Source of the DNA: Escherichia phage vB_EcoM-RPN187
Sequence record: OL770074.2
DNA length: 64,000 nt
Reading direction: 5' to 3' (one strand)
Below, piece by piece: positions 41,908-42,735 of this stretch (within the stretch, counting starts at the first letter, position 1; each line of letters opens with the position of its first letter). The notes below the pieces were generated by a model, which had not been told where the DNA came from, searched no databases, and was given only the letters and a program-made list of their open reading frames with translations. The position numbers were made by a program, and so were the translations under genes.

Positions 41908-41983
41908 TGGTCGAGGCAGTAGGGGTCGAACCTACGACCTAGGACTTAGAAGGTCCTTGCTCTTCCTTCTGAGCTATGCCTCG
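41908..41983 (-). tRNA. tRNA-Arg (anticodon UCU)
   Basis: Hand-folded cloverleaf: acceptor CGAGGCA/TGCCTCG, D-arm GCTC/GAGC, anticodon loop CUUCUAA, T-arm GTAGG-TTCGACC-CCTAC, encoded CCA. Confidence 0.8.
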
Positions 41984-41987
41984 GATT

Positions 41988-42062
41988 TGGCGGACATGCA
42001 TGGATTCGAACCATGGACCAATTGATTAACAGTCAACTGCTCTACCACTGAGCTACACATCC
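41988..42062 (-). tRNA. tRNA-Asn (anticodon GUU)
   Basis: Acceptor GGATGTG/CATGTCC (two G-U pairs), D-arm GCTC/GAGC, anticodon stem GTTGA/TCAAT with loop CUGUUAA, T-arm CATGG-TTCGAAT-CCATG, CCA. Confidence 0.7.
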
Positions 42063-42066
42063 AAAT

Positions 42067-42153
42067 TGGTTGGGAGTGATGGAGTCGAACCACCTGAGTC
42101 GCAATGACAATGGATTTACAGTCCACACCGCTACCTCTACGGGATAACTCCCC
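42067..42153 (-). tRNA. tRNA-Tyr (anticodon GUA), class II with long variable arm
   Basis: Anticodon loop CUGUAAA; T-arm GGTGG-TTCGACT-CCATC; CCA encoded; the acceptor stem pairs only with a mismatch or bulge, so the 5' boundary is uncertain. Confidence 0.55.
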
Positions 42154-42162
42154 AAATTAATT

Positions 42163-42237
42163 TGGTGGCCCTGGGTGGAATTGAACCACCATCTGGCGAT
42201 TATGAGTCGCTTGCTTGAACCTTCCAGCTACAGGGCC
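42163..42237 (-). tRNA. tRNA with anticodon CAU (Met or lysidine-type Ile)
   Basis: Acceptor GGCCCTG/CAGGGCC, anticodon loop CUCAUAA, T-arm GGTGG-TTCAATT-CCACC, CCA; occupies the T4 tRNA-Ile position. Confidence 0.7.
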
Positions 42238-42238
42238 T

Positions 42239-42314
42239 TGGTGCTGATTGACGGAATCGAACCACCGACCTTCTCATTACAAGTGAGTTGCTCTACCTAC
42301 TGAACTAAATCAGC
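42239..42314 (-). tRNA. tRNA-Thr (anticodon UGU)
   Basis: Acceptor GCTGATT/AATCAGC, D-arm GTTC/GAGC, anticodon loop CUUGUAA, CCA encoded. Confidence 0.75.
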
Positions 42315-42319
42315 AAAAC

Positions 42320-42410
42320 TGGCGGAGGCGATAGGATTTGAACCTATGAGTCGCCGGAGCGACTGCCGGTTTTCAAGACCGGTGCATTAAACCACTCTGC
42401 CACGCCTCCA
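42320..42410 (-). tRNA. tRNA-Ser (anticodon UGA), class II
   Basis: Acceptor GGAGGCG/CGCCTCC, anticodon stem CCGGT/ACCGG with loop CUUGAAA, long variable arm, 91 nt. Confidence 0.8.
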
Positions 42411-42411
42411 G

Positions 42412-42485
42412 TCTCCATACAAGGATTTGAACCTTGGACCTCCTGATCCCAAATCAGGCGCTCTACCAAACTGAGCTACACGGAG
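42412..42485 (-). tRNA. tRNA-Pro (anticodon UGG), CCA not encoded
   Basis: Acceptor CTCCGTG/TATGGAG, D-arm GCTC/GAGC, anticodon stem CCTGA/TCAGG with loop UUUGGGA, T-arm CAAGG-TTCAAAT-CCTTG; one nucleotide separates it from tRNA-Ser. Confidence 0.75.
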
Positions 42486-42495
42486 TAAATTAAAT

Positions 42496-42569
42496 TGGAG
42501 CGGATAATGAGAATCGAACTCACATCATCAGATTGGAAGTCTGAGGTAATGCCATTATACGATATCCGC
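42496..42569 (-). tRNA. tRNA-Gly (anticodon UCC)
   Basis: Acceptor GCGGATA/TATCCGC, anticodon stem TCAGA/TCTGA with loop CUUCCAA, T-arm GTGAG-TTCGATT-CTCAT, CCA. Confidence 0.75.
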
Positions 42570-42574
42570 AAATT

Positions 42575-42661
42575 TGGTGCGAGAAGTGGGACTCGAACCC
42601 ACAAGGAAATCATTCCGCAGCATTTTAAGTGCTGTGCCTTTACCAATTTGACCATTCTCGC
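42575..42661 (-). tRNA. tRNA-Leu (anticodon UAA), class II
   Basis: Acceptor GCGAGAA/TTCTCGC, anticodon stem CAGCA/TGCTG with loop CUUAAAA, variable arm GGAA-TGAT-TTCC, T-arm GTGGG-TTCGAGT-CCCAC, CCA. Confidence 0.8.
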
Positions 42662-42662
42662 G

Positions 42663-42735
42663 CTGGGAATAAAGGACTCGAACCTTTGCATCCTGGAATC
42701 AAAATCCAGTGCCTTACCAACTTGGCTAATTCCCA
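42663..42735 (-). tRNA. tRNA-Gln (anticodon UUG), CCA not encoded
   Basis: Acceptor TGGGAAT/ATTCCCA, D-arm GCC/GGC, anticodon stem CTGGA/TCCAG with loop UUUUGAU, T-arm AAAGG-TTCGAGT-CCTTT; one nucleotide from tRNA-Leu. Confidence 0.75.

What the first reader, a model, noticed from the sequence alone, without database searches (positions are those of the whole stretch)
41908..42735. Ten-tRNA cluster with Tyr and Asn in addition to the T4 set
Hand folding gives, in transcription order on the minus strand, Gln(UUG), Leu(UAA), Gly(UCC), Pro(UGG), Ser(UGA), Thr(UGU), a CAU tRNA (Ile2 or Met), Tyr(GUA), Asn(GUU) and Arg(UCU). Spacers are 1-10 nt. T4 carries eight of these; Tyr and Asn are extra. 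Pro and Gln lack an encoded CCA and are each 1 nt from the next tRNA, which fits dimeric precursors. The Tyr gene has an imperfect acceptor stem.
Basis: partly seen in the sequence, partly recalled or inferred. Interest (0 to 1): 0.45.

Follow-up and report, generated by a model that had tools for sequence, protein, structure and literature searches.

The report
Known T-even phage ten-tRNA gene cluster
This is a real row of ten transfer-RNA genes in a T4-like coliphage, but the same arrangement was described in phage T2 in 2008 and is annotated in hundreds of sequenced relatives, so it is ordinary.

Summary
Rfam's tRNA model passes all ten, Tyr only just (30.9 bits against a threshold of 29). 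Gln and Pro lack an encoded CCA. Tyr has a G1.A72 mismatch.

The window is a Mosigvirus (RB69-like). Its nearest record, Escherichia phage AV112 (99.8% identical), already carries the same ten annotations. The cluster is the segB-less allele of the T-even tRNA region, as in T2L and RB27. At least 415 phage records hold most of it.

T4 has the homing endonuclease gene segB where Tyr and Asn sit here. T4's CAU and Arg genes are different alleles, 63% and 62% identical to the window's. The CAU tRNA is of the Ile2 (lysidine) type, not Met.

The ten tRNAs read 11 of the 12 codons most over-used by this phage relative to an E. coli sample. The near-identical T6 tRNA-Tyr is published as a dosage-dependent counter to Septu defence.

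Local particulars are minor:
- The Tyr A72 allele is rare.
- The Gln and Asn alleles differ from those of RB27, T2 and T4 (Asn: RB27, T2) by compensatory stem changes.
- A 1.85-kb Tequatrovirus-like patch sits in the Mosigvirus backbone.

Verdict: already known, low interest.

The parts
42805..42829 (-). Middle-promoter-like motif: a MotA box (ATA)TGCTTTA, 12 bp, then the -10 element TATTAT, about 70 nt upstream of tRNA-Gln
   Evidence: The pattern TGCTTTA-N11-13-TANNNT occurs 6 times in the window against 1.16 expected. The site is invariant in T4, T2, T6, RB27 and JK36 whatever gene lies upstream. Consensus and spacing come from PMC2988021. Promoter activity is inferred, not shown.
42662..42735 (-). 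tRNA-Gln(UUG). No encoded CCA, and 1 nt (C) separates its discriminator from Leu. Its anticodon arm differs from the T4, T2 and RB27 allele.
   Evidence: ARAGORN. Rfam 67.4 bits. 89% identical to T4, RB27, T2 and T6, and 100% to JK36, p000y and AV112. Three compensatory pairs in the anticodon stem, and a U32/U38 loop.
42575..42661 (-). tRNA-Leu(UAA), class II, CCA encoded
   Evidence: ARAGORN. Rfam 59.3 bits. 100% identical to T4.
42496..42569 (-). tRNA-Gly(UCC), CCA encoded
   Evidence: ARAGORN. Rfam 63.3 bits. 73/74 identical to T4.
42411..42485 (-). tRNA-Pro(UGG). No encoded CCA. The dinucleotide CU separates its discriminator from Ser.
   Evidence: ARAGORN. Rfam 66.8 bits. 100% identical to T4, with the same junction as in T4.
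42320..42409 (-). tRNA-Ser(UGA), class II. CCA is encoded here, whereas T4 has UAA at that place.
   Evidence: ARAGORN. Rfam 62.6 bits. The first 87 nt are identical to T4. The 3' end is CCA here and TAA in T4.
42239..42314 (-). tRNA-Thr(UGU), CCA encoded, 1 nt from the CAU tRNA
   Evidence: ARAGORN. Rfam 65.4 bits. A private C11-to-U change turns a D-stem pair into a G.U pair.
42163..42237 (-). tRNA with anticodon CAU, of the Ile2 (lysidine) type, CCA encoded. This is the T2/RB27 allele, not the T4 allele.
   Evidence: ARAGORN. Rfam 59.9 bits. The best full-length match in 5,336 E. coli genomes is annotated tRNA-Ile (81.6%). It has C4-G69, C5-G68, U12-A23, C29-G41, A37, A38 and A73 (criteria). 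It is 63% identical to T4 tRNA-Ile.
42067..42153 (-). tRNA-Tyr(GUA), class II with a short variable arm, CCA encoded, G1.A72 mismatch and an irregular D arm
   Evidence: ARAGORN. Rfam 30.9 bits. RB27, T2, T6 and the plasmid p009_B have C72. The A72 3' end has 0 hits in IMG/VR against 77 for C72. It is 95% identical to T6 tRNA-Tyr.
41988..42062 (-). tRNA-Asn(GUU), CCA encoded, RB51/JS10-type allele
   Evidence: ARAGORN. Rfam 72.6 bits. 84% identical to RB27 and T2, and at least 99% identical in 40 phage records (the 30 listed are identical), including RB51, RB68, JS10 and IME08. Across three alleles, 9 of 21 pairs change on both sides and 100% of cells stay paired.
41986..42012 (-). [quoted passage not shown]
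   Evidence: The window has GGTTCGAATCCATGCATGTCCGCCAAA and T2 has GGTTCGAATCCTATCACGTCCGCCAAA, 23/27 identical. All five nucleotides singled out in PMC2330249 (G6, A16, G18, A26, A27) are kept. Cleavage was not tested.
41908..41983 (-). tRNA-Arg(UCU), CCA encoded. This is the T2/RB27 allele, one of three Arg(UCU) alleles in this phage group.
   Evidence: ARAGORN. Rfam 66.9 bits. 97% identical to RB27 and T2, 82% to APCEc01 and p000y, and 62% to T4 and T6.
41792..41906 (-). Homolog of T4 rnaD (species 2 stable RNA). It starts 1 nt after Arg, its ends are conserved and its centre is divergent.
   Evidence: Alignment to the annotated T4 and RB27 rnaD. The rnaD-rnaC stretch 41569-41904 is 97.3% identical to T2, and the stretch 40468-41908 is 96% identical to APCEc01. 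No Rfam family matches. Its function is unknown (PMC3014915).
41647..41785 (-). Homolog of T4 rnaC (species 1 stable RNA), with a tRNA-like terminal helix and a T-arm-like hairpin
   Evidence: 139/141 identical to T4 and 141/141 to RB27 over 41640-41780; bounds mapped onto the annotated T4 rnaC. Fold energy -50.2 kcal/mol, z -4.55, with the hairpin CCGGG-UUCGAAU-CCCGG.
41567..41596 (-). Intrinsic-terminator-like hairpin plus a U6 run that closes the transcription unit
   Evidence: Fold of 41560-41646. Conserved in T4 and RB27. The simple consensus scan did not flag it.

Best explanation
This is the tRNA operon of a T-even-type phage in its ten-gene, segB-less form, the arrangement known from T2L and RB27.

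It is most likely transcribed as one unit on the minus strand. Transcription would come from a MotA-dependent middle promoter about 70 nt upstream of Gln, plus read-through from upstream. The unit runs through ten tRNAs and the two stable RNAs rnaD and rnaC to a terminator near 41570.

Host enzymes then process the transcript. RNase P makes the 5' ends, including those inside the closely spaced Gln-Leu, Pro-Ser and Thr-CAU pairs. 3' trimming and the host CCA-adding enzyme finish Gln and Pro. The CAU tRNA is converted by host TilS to a lysidine tRNA that reads AUA as Ile.

The tRNAs add decoding capacity for codons that this AT-rich phage uses far more than E. coli does: AGA, AUA, ACA, UCA, UUA, GGA, CAA, and AAU and UAU. 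The tRNAs also replace host tRNAs that defence nucleases destroy. tRNA-Tyr does this against Septu in the published T6 case.

Shown here: the genes, their structures, their relatives, the codon bias and the identity elements. Inferred: the transcription unit, the processing pathway, lysidine formation and the defence role in this particular phage.
For: - Gene calls and scores.
- Same ten genes in the same order between trna.2 and rnaD/rnaC in AV112 (99.8% identical), RB27, JK36 and p000y.
- At least 415 phage records cover at least 80% of the 1.6-kb region, and 434 hold the Tyr-Asn pair.
- T2 has nine of the ten genes. The T2L block Met(CAU)-Tyr-Asn-Arg is published; PMC2330249.
- No SegB homolog anywhere in the window.
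- Junctions identical to T4's pairs. In T4 six of the eight tRNAs arise from dimeric precursors, with Pro-Ser and Thr-Ile named: PMC11143913.
- Promoter motif and terminator.
- Codon usage: of the 12 codons most enriched in 71 window ORFs against a 50-kb E. coli K-12 sample, 11 can be read by these tRNAs. Examples are AGA 5.2x, ATA 5.1x, ACA 3.6x, TCA 3.0x, AAT 2.8x, TTA 2.6x, GGA 2.5x and TAT 2.3x. Tyr and Asn residues are about 1.6-1.7x more frequent.
- Ile2 features of the CAU tRNA.
- Compensatory changes show that selection maintains the Asn and Gln cloverleaves.
- T6 tRNA-Tyr, 95% identical with the same C48 cleavage position, restores T6 infection when over-expressed in cells carrying Septu: PMC13096335.
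Against: - Nothing here measures expression, processing, charging or modification in this phage.
- The Tyr gene carries G1.A72. G1-C72 is cited as having an identity function for bacterial TyrRS (PMC9976931), so this copy may be charged or processed less well than the T6 copy.
- The Tyr family scores poorly against the general tRNA model. T6 tRNA-Tyr is reported as relatively unstable.
- The codon comparison uses crude ORF calls and one 50-kb host sample.
- Published estimates cited in PMC11464382 question whether codon compensation alone explains phage tRNAs.
- The -10 element TATTAT and the MotA box are consensus matches only.
Confidence: 0.9

Rival explanations
1. The Tyr gene in this lineage is a decaying or non-functional copy, a pseudo-tRNA kept only as a passenger, so the working set is nine tRNAs.
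For: - G1.A72 mismatch plus a D-stem mismatch.
- Rfam score of 30.9 bits, barely above the threshold of 29.
- Two derived substitutions (A59, A72) are absent from all 77 IMG/VR copies and from RB27, T2, T6 and p009_B. The A72 3' end has 0 hits in IMG/VR.
- Some GenBank records label the orthologous gene Pseudo, OTHER or Undet.
- G1-C72 is cited as having an identity function for bacterial TyrRS.
Against: - The low model score is shared by the T6 gene, which is below threshold, and by the RB27 gene at 30.2 bits. Yet T6 tRNA-Tyr is detected by northern blot and rescues infection.
- The gene is otherwise intact: anticodon loop, A73, encoded CCA, T arm and variable arm are all present.
- The same allele is kept in AV112 and in AV113.
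- A single terminal mismatch is tolerated in many tRNAs.
Confidence: 0.15
2. The cluster, or at least Tyr and Asn, is kept mainly as a counter-defence module. On this view it replaces host tRNAs cut by tRNA-targeting immune nucleases, and codon supply is secondary.
For: - T6 tRNA-Tyr overcomes Septu by dosage. T4, which lacks Tyr, cannot escape Septu, and T2, which has Tyr, is resistant (PMC13096335).
- T5 tRNA-Tyr counters the retron-Eco7 PtuAB toxin, and T5 tRNA-Lys counters PARIS.
- Tyr and Asn each read a two-codon box that the host already covers with one anticodon. They add supply, not new decoding.
- The Gln and Asn alleles differ mainly in their anticodon arms.
Against: - UAU and AAU, and Tyr and Asn residues, are themselves over-used by the phage, so plain supply also explains them.
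- The papers read here name no nuclease that targets tRNA-Asn. [quoted passage not shown]
- Septu cuts the phage tRNA-Tyr too, so the phage tRNA works by quantity, not by resistance.
- From my memory of the E. coli sequences, the Tyr and Asn anticodon loops here match the host's.
Confidence: 0.35
3. The CAU tRNA is an elongator tRNA-Met, as ARAGORN and most GenBank records label it, and not tRNA-Ile2.
For: The anticodon is CAT. ARAGORN calls it Met, and the GenBank records for AV112, RB27, T2 and T6 label it Met.
Against: - Its best match in E. coli genomes is the gene annotated tRNA-Ile (81.6% over the full length).
- It has C4-G69 and C5-G68, which E. coli TilS requires.
- It has the IleRS elements C4-G69, U12-A23, C29-G41, A37, A38 and A73, and it lacks the MetRS elements U4-A69 and A5-U68.
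- AUA is 5x enriched in the phage.
- The gene at the same position in T4 is annotated isoleucyl-tRNA.
Confidence: 0.05

Closest known systems
tRNA gene region of phage T2L, RB1 and RB3, and the full ten-gene version in RB27 (Brok-Volchanskaya et al. 2008, PMC2330249; GenBank KM607000)
   Same: Same position between trna.2 and rnaD/rnaC, and same gene order. The window holds the T2/RB27 alleles of CAU (100%), Tyr (97-98%) and Arg (97%). There is no segB, and the Asn gene carries the SegB-preferred site.
   Different: The Gln anticodon arm (89% identity) and the Asn anticodon and T stems (84%) are other alleles. Tyr has A72. T2 has an ORF in place of Thr and another between Arg and rnaD. RB27 has an extra ORF upstream of the promoter region. 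The backbone here is Mosigvirus, not Tequatrovirus.
Phage T4 tRNA cluster (eight tRNAs, segB, rnaD, rnaC)
   Same: Gln through Thr are collinear and 89-100% identical. The Gln-Leu, Pro-Ser and Thr-CAU junctions are the same. The upstream promoter region, rnaC and the terminator are the same.
   Different: T4 has segB where Tyr and Asn lie. Its Ile(CAU) and Arg genes are different alleles, 63% and 62% identical. T4's Ser and Ile lack CCA, whereas Ser and the CAU tRNA encode it here. The centre of rnaD differs.
Escherichia phages AV112 and AV113 (OR352942, OR352943), and the Mosigviruses JK36 and p000y
   Same: AV112 and AV113 are 99.8% identical over the region. AV112 carries the same ten annotated tRNAs, including the A72 Tyr and the RB51-type Asn. 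JK36 and p000y are Mosigviruses with the same ten genes and the same Gln allele.
   Different: The window differs from AV112 by two bases in Thr and one in Arg. JK36 and p000y have the RB27-type Asn, the C72 Tyr and an extra 345-nt ORF between Arg and rnaD. p000y has the APCEc01-type Arg.
Phage T6 tRNA-Tyr as a dosage-dependent counter to Septu (Chihara et al. 2026, PMC13096335)
   Same: The Tyr gene is 95% identical, with an identical variable arm that includes the mapped C48 cleavage position.
   Different: T6 has segB next to Tyr, which drives tandem amplification. This window has no segB. The window's Tyr has G1.A72. No defence phenotype was tested here.

Membership tests
tRNA (Rfam RF00005) | Cloverleaf that scores at or above the family gathering score of 29 bits | tested here: met
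   All ten pass. Nine score 59.3-72.6 bits and Tyr scores 30.9. ARAGORN draws all ten.
T-even tRNA operon, segB-less ten-gene form (T2L/RB27 type) | Location between trna.2 and rnaD/rnaC, with the order Gln-Leu-Gly-Pro-Ser-Thr-CAU-Tyr-Asn-Arg | tested here: met
   The order and flanks are identical to RB27, AV112, JK36 and p000y. The trna.2 ORF lies at 42833-43126 (ORF list; homology). The rnaD and rnaC homologs are mapped.
T-even tRNA operon, segB-less ten-gene form (T2L/RB27 type) | Absence of the segB homing endonuclease gene | tested here: met
   tblastn of T4 SegB against the 64-kb window gives no hit better than E = 8.5. Asn and Arg are 4 nt apart.
T-even tRNA operon, segB-less ten-gene form (T2L/RB27 type) | Preferred SegB recognition sequence at the 3' end of tRNA-Asn | tested here: inconclusive
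   23/27 identical to the T2 site, and all five nucleotides named as important are kept. Cleavage of this variant by SegB is not known.
T4-type dimeric tRNA precursors (Gln-Leu, Pro-Ser, Thr-Ile) | Adjacent tRNAs separated by fewer than five nucleotides, with the upstream member of Gln-Leu and Pro-Ser lacking CCA | tested here: met
   The junctions match T4's base for base: C after Gln, CU after Pro, and A after Thr-CCA.
T4-type dimeric tRNA precursors (Gln-Leu, Pro-Ser, Thr-Ile) | Dimeric intermediates that accumulate and are cut by RNase P | not testable with these tools
   This needs RNA from infected cells. It is known for T4 (PMC11143913).
tRNA-Ile2 (CAU anticodon converted to lysidine) | C34-A35-U36 with C4-G69 and C5-G68, the E. 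coli TilS determinants | tested here: met
   The acceptor stem is GGCCCUG/CAGGGCC. The criteria come from PMC1635315.
tRNA-Ile2 (CAU anticodon converted to lysidine) | IleRS determinants (A73, C4-G69, U12-A23, C29-G41, A37, A38) present, and MetRS determinants (U4-A69, A5-U68) absent | tested here: met
   Read from the ARAGORN structure and the sequence against Table 1 of PMC9976931. The best E. coli match is annotated tRNA-Ile.
tRNA-Ile2 (CAU anticodon converted to lysidine) | Lysidine at position 34 and charging with isoleucine | not testable with these tools
   This needs mass spectrometry or aminoacylation assays.
Phage tRNA used as counter-defence (T6 tRNA-Tyr against Septu) | Close sequence relative of the tested tRNA that keeps the nuclease target position | tested here: met
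   83/87 identical to T6 tRNA-Tyr, with C48 and the variable arm unchanged (PMC13096335).
Phage tRNA used as counter-defence (T6 tRNA-Tyr against Septu) | Rescue of infection on hosts that carry the defence | not testable with these tools
   This needs plaque assays. Also, the segB-driven amplification route is not available in cis because segB is absent.

The most novel reading that the evidence does not exclude
The alleles in this cluster might be products of selection by host tRNA-targeting nucleases, not neutral drift. The alleles in question are the E. coli-like anticodon arm of Gln, the RB51-type Asn, the T2-type CAU and Arg, and the rare G1.A72 Tyr. On this reading the T-even tRNA operon is a recombining counter-defence island whose alleles are shuffled across genera. 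The shuffling would be helped by the SegB-type cleavage sites present at the 3' end of every tRNA gene. The A72 change in Tyr would then alter recognition by a nuclease or a processing enzyme and would not be damage.
Probability: 0.1. Interest if true: 0.45.

Novelty: already known. Interest (0 to 1): 0.12.

Why it matters
It matters little as a discovery. The ten-tRNA arrangement, its relation to T4's segB, the dimeric precursors and the anti-Septu role of the T-even tRNA-Tyr are all published. The nearest GenBank record already annotates the same ten genes.

The locus is useful as a worked example of two things:
- How homing-endonuclease-associated recombination shuffles tRNA alleles between Tequatrovirus and Mosigvirus.
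- Why this phage family's tRNA-Tyr is easily mislabelled as a pseudogene, and its CAU tRNA as Met, by automatic annotation.

Tried and rejected
- **PARIS and tRNA-Asn.** I recalled that PARIS might also cut tRNA-Asn. The Nature paper contains no occurrence of 'Asn', so I dropped the idea.
- **Is the Asn allele unique?** I checked whether the divergent Asn allele belongs only to this lineage. It does not: 40 phage records hold it at 99% identity or more, and the 30 listed, including RB51, RB68, JS10 and IME08, are identical.
- **Is the low Tyr score caused by the A72 mutation?** It is not. RB27's C72 copy scores 30.2 bits and T6's falls below threshold.
- **An alternative Tyr D-arm register.** I looked at the register Rfam uses, which starts at G3 and gives a perfect 4-bp D stem. 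It cannot be reconciled with the acceptor and T stems, so I kept ARAGORN's register and left the D-arm geometry unresolved.
- **Sigma-70 promoter scan.** The scan found no more sites than shuffled sequence (8 against 7.8) and none convincing just upstream of Gln. The MotA-box pattern was the informative test.
- **Terminator scan.** It missed the conserved terminator after rnaC. That terminator was found by folding.
- **Miller et al. 2003 T4 genome review.** The library does not hold it.
- **Rfam families for rnaC and rnaD.** Rfam has no family that matches either RNA.
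Full report

Yes. ARAGORN run on the whole 64-kb window reports ten tRNA genes and nothing else.

Rfam's general tRNA covariance model finds the same ten. Nine score 59-73 bits (E 1e-11 to 3e-15). Tyr reaches only 30.9 bits against a gathering score of 29.

Reading the sequence gives the following:
- Eight genes encode CCA.
- Gln ends with its discriminator G plus one C before Leu starts.
- Pro ends with its discriminator A plus CU before Ser starts.
- All spacers are 1-10 nt.
- The Tyr acceptor stem has a single G1.A72 mismatch.
- In ARAGORN's register the Tyr D stem has a C.C mismatch and the variable arm is short (3 bp).

**2. What genome is this, and is the cluster unusual in it?**

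The 1.6 kb around the cluster is 99.8% identical to Escherichia phages AV112 and AV113. AV112's GenBank record already annotates the same ten tRNAs.

The flanking 20-25 kb on either side match Mosigvirus (RB69-like) genomes at 96-98%. Most other matching records, including Tequatrovirus genomes, match them at below 90%. The backbone is therefore a Mosigvirus.

Reference Mosigviruses have only two tRNAs at this locus. APCEc01 has CAU and Arg(UCU), and JS09's record annotates none. Other Mosigviruses of the same species as APCEc01, namely JK36 and p000y, do carry the ten-gene cluster.

A pairwise BLAST scan of 39000-46500 shows a mosaic:
- 41907-43755 holds the ten tRNAs plus the trna.2, trna.3 and trna.4 ORFs. 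It is 93-98% identical to T4, T2, T6 and RB27. It is at most 84% identical to JS09 and APCEc01, or absent from them.
- Mosigvirus-level identity (96-98%) resumes below 41908 and above 44326.

So a Tequatrovirus-type patch of about 1.85 kb sits in a Mosigvirus backbone, and the locus is polymorphic within the genus.

**3. Relation to T4, T2 and T6**

RB27 has the same ten genes in the same order, followed by the annotated rnaD and rnaC. The classic T-even phages each differ:
- T2 has nine of the ten, with an ORF replacing Thr.
- T6 has Gln, Leu, Gly, Thr, CAU, Tyr, segB and Arg.
- T4 has Gln, Leu, Gly, Pro, Ser, Thr, Ile(CAU), segB and Arg.

In T4 the GIY-YIG homing endonuclease gene segB therefore occupies the place of Tyr and Asn.

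T4's two neighbouring tRNA genes are different alleles:
- The window's CAU tRNA is 63% identical to T4 tRNA-Ile. The match is confined mainly to the first 12 nt.
- The window's Arg is 62% identical to T4's.
- T4's Ile allele is the one found in Mosigvirus APCEc01.
- There are three Arg(UCU) alleles in the group.

This is the situation described by Brok-Volchanskaya et al. (PMC2330249):
- T2L, RB1 and RB3 lack segB.
- In T4 x T2L co-infection the roughly 1250-bp T2L block encoding Met(CAU), Tyr, Asn and Arg is excluded.

I reconstructed the 27-bp site from the T2 genome as GGTTCGAATCCTATCACGTCCGCCAAA. It differs from the Ser site at exactly the five positions the paper names, which validates the reconstruction. 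The window's Asn has GGTTCGAATCCATGCATGTCCGCCAAA. That is 23/27 identical, and all five named positions are kept. No SegB homolog is encoded anywhere in the window.

**4. How common is it?**

- 960 phage records match the region, and 415 of them cover at least 80% of it in one place.
- 434 records hold the Tyr-Asn pair.
- The window's Asn allele is only 84% identical to that of RB27 and T2, yet 40 records hold it at 99% identity or more. The 30 listed are identical and include RB51, RB68, JS10 and IME08.
- The window's Gln allele is shared with JK36, p000y and AV112.

Every component is an allele already in circulation.

**5. Are the individual genes functional tRNAs?**

- **Asn.** Across three alleles (window, RB27, and an E. 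coli plasmid copy), 100% of 63 pair cells are standard pairs. Nine of 21 pairs change on both sides. No slid register comes close.
- **Gln.** The window allele differs from the T4 type only in the anticodon arm. It has three compensatory pairs and a U32/U38 loop in place of C32/C38. U38 is listed among bacterial GlnRS identity elements, and the window allele meets it.
- **CAU.**
  - Its best full-length match in 5,336 of 5,426 E. coli genomes is a gene annotated tRNA-Ile (81.6%).
  - The one hit I inspected lies next to a prophage Q antiterminator gene.
  - It has C4-G69 and C5-G68, which E. coli TilS requires.
  - It has the IleRS elements C4-G69, U12-A23, C29-G41, A37, A38 and A73, and it lacks the MetRS elements U4-A69 and A5-U68.
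  - It lacks a 1-72 mismatch, and it has C11-G24 where PMC1635315 gives A11-U24 as a mark of initiator tRNAs. From memory, initiators also have a 1-72 mismatch and a GGG/CCC anticodon stem, which this gene lacks.
  - I therefore read it as tRNA-Ile2, although ARAGORN and most GenBank records write 'Met'.
- **Tyr.**
  - RB27, T2, T6 and a plasmid copy all have C72, giving G1-C72.
  - The exact 3' end with A72 has no match in IMG/VR, while the C72 version has 77. All 18 distinct IMG/VR variants also have G at linear position 59, where the window has A.
  - A72 and A59 are therefore derived and confined to the window, AV112 and AV113 lineage.
  - The poor model score is not due to these changes. 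RB27's copy scores 30.2 bits and T6's falls below threshold. Several GenBank annotators call the gene Pseudo, OTHER or Undet.
  - T6 tRNA-Tyr is nevertheless detected in infected cells and rescues infection.
  - Compensatory changes in the anticodon stem between the phage and plasmid copies (G-C to A-U) also argue for a maintained structure.

**6. Transcription and processing (inferred)**

The 100 nt upstream of Gln are nearly invariant in T4, T2, T6, RB27 and JK36, even where the upstream gene differs. They contain ATATGCTTTA, then 12 bp, then TATTAT. This matches the published MotA-box consensus and spacing for T4 middle promoters (PMC2988021). The pattern occurs 6 times in the window against 1.16 expected. 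That review lists the T4 tRNAs among middle-gene products.

Downstream, Arg is followed after 1 nt by a homolog of rnaD (41792-41906). After 6 more nt comes a homolog of rnaC (41647-41785), and then a hairpin with a U6 run at 41567-41596.

The Gln-Leu, Pro-Ser and Thr-CAU junctions are the same as in T4. In T4 six of the eight tRNAs arise from dimeric precursors cut by RNase P. The Pro-Ser precursor lacks CCA on both members, and UAA follows Ser (PMC11143913).

Here Ser and the CAU tRNA encode CCA, whereas T4 has TAA and TAT at those places. Only Gln and Pro should therefore need the host CCA-adding enzyme.

**7. What is it for?**

I compared codon usage in 71 non-overlapping ORFs of the window (16,658 codons) with 34 ORFs from a 50-kb E. 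coli K-12 segment. The twelve most phage-enriched codons are AGA, ATA, ACA, TCA, CCT, TCT, AAT, ACT, TTA, GGA, CTT and TAT. All but CTT can be read by one of the ten tRNAs, allowing the usual U34 wobble for CCT, TCT and ACT, which is my assumption. Tyr and Asn residues are 1.6-1.7 times more frequent than in the host sample. This fits the classical codon-supply explanation and extends it to Tyr and Asn.

A second role is documented for the T6 tRNA-Tyr, which is 95% identical:
- Septu (PtuAB) cuts tRNA-Tyr in the variable arm.
- Extra phage tRNA-Tyr restores infection.
- T4, which lacks Tyr, cannot escape Septu.
- T2, which has Tyr, is resistant (PMC13096335).

The window's Tyr keeps the mapped C48 position. 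Because the window has no segB, the amplification route used by T6 is not available in cis. No nuclease that targets tRNA-Asn turned up in the papers I read.

**8. Verdict**

That allele was published in 2008 and is annotated in hundreds of genomes, including a 99.8% identical one.

The local particulars are real but small:
- the rare Tyr A72 allele;
- a private C11-to-U change in Thr;
- the combination of Gln and Asn alleles;
- the Tequatrovirus patch in a Mosigvirus backbone.

Novelty: already known. Interest: low.

Noticed in passing
window 41647-41785 (-): The rnaC (species 1 RNA) homolog folds with its 5' and 3' ends paired. A T-arm-like hairpin, CCGGG-UUCGAAU-CCCGG, lies next to the 3' strand, so the RNA ends in a tRNA-like minihelix (-50.2 kcal/mol, z -4.55). 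It is 99-100% conserved across T4, RB27 and AV112. Its function is still listed as unknown, and no Rfam family covers it.
   Followed up: partly
window 41792-41906 (-): The rnaD (species 2 RNA) homolog has conserved ends but a divergent centre of about 50 nt. The window shares its version with T2 (the rnaD-rnaC stretch is 97.3% identical), not with T4 or RB27. The predicted fold is no better than shuffled sequence (z -1.0).
   Followed up: partly
window 41907-43755, within 39000-46500: A patch of about 1.85 kb (ten tRNAs plus trna.2, trna.3 and trna.4) is 93-98% identical to Tequatrovirus genomes. The surrounding sequence is 96-98% Mosigvirus. Reference Mosigviruses (APCEc01, JS09) have only a T4-type Ile(CAU) and an Arg gene here, so the tRNA locus has been exchanged between genera and is polymorphic within a species.
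   Followed up: yes
window 43685-43748, 44000-44082 and 44327-44400: Three copies of a segment of about 65-85 nt all match the same T4 stretch upstream of ipI. Each precedes a small ORF, two of which are 43749-44021 and 44085-44348. They look like the conserved leader or N-terminus of a variable set of internal-protein-like genes.
   Followed up: no
locus L009 (E. coli plasmid p009_B, NZ_CP048306.1) 1497-2498: E. coli plasmids of 72-112 kb carry an Asn-Tyr-Thr...Ser tRNA group. Its Tyr gene is 92% identical to the T-even one, so this unusual tRNA-Tyr is shared between T-even phages and these plasmids. Many of the 77 IMG/VR contigs that hold it are 20-110 kb long.
   Followed up: partly
window 42067-42153 (-); loci L002 and L006: The T-even tRNA-Tyr family fits the general tRNA model badly: 30.9 bits here, 30.2 in RB27, and below threshold in T6. 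Rfam aligns it in a shifted register that gives a perfect 4-bp D stem but leaves four nucleotides between the acceptor and D stems. The true D-arm geometry is unresolved.
   Followed up: partly
window 42304 (-), position 11 of tRNA-Thr: The window's Thr gene has a private C11-to-U change, turning a D-stem C-G pair into U.G. AV112, RB27, T4 and JK36 do not have it. The Rfam score drops from 72.9 bits (RB27) to 65.4.
   Followed up: no
locus L008 (E. coli M19 chromosome) 301-376: The E. coli hit that I inspected among the top-scoring matches to the phage CAU tRNA is a prophage tRNA-Ile gene lying just downstream of a lambdoid antiterminator Q gene, not one of the core ileX/ileY genes.
   Followed up: no
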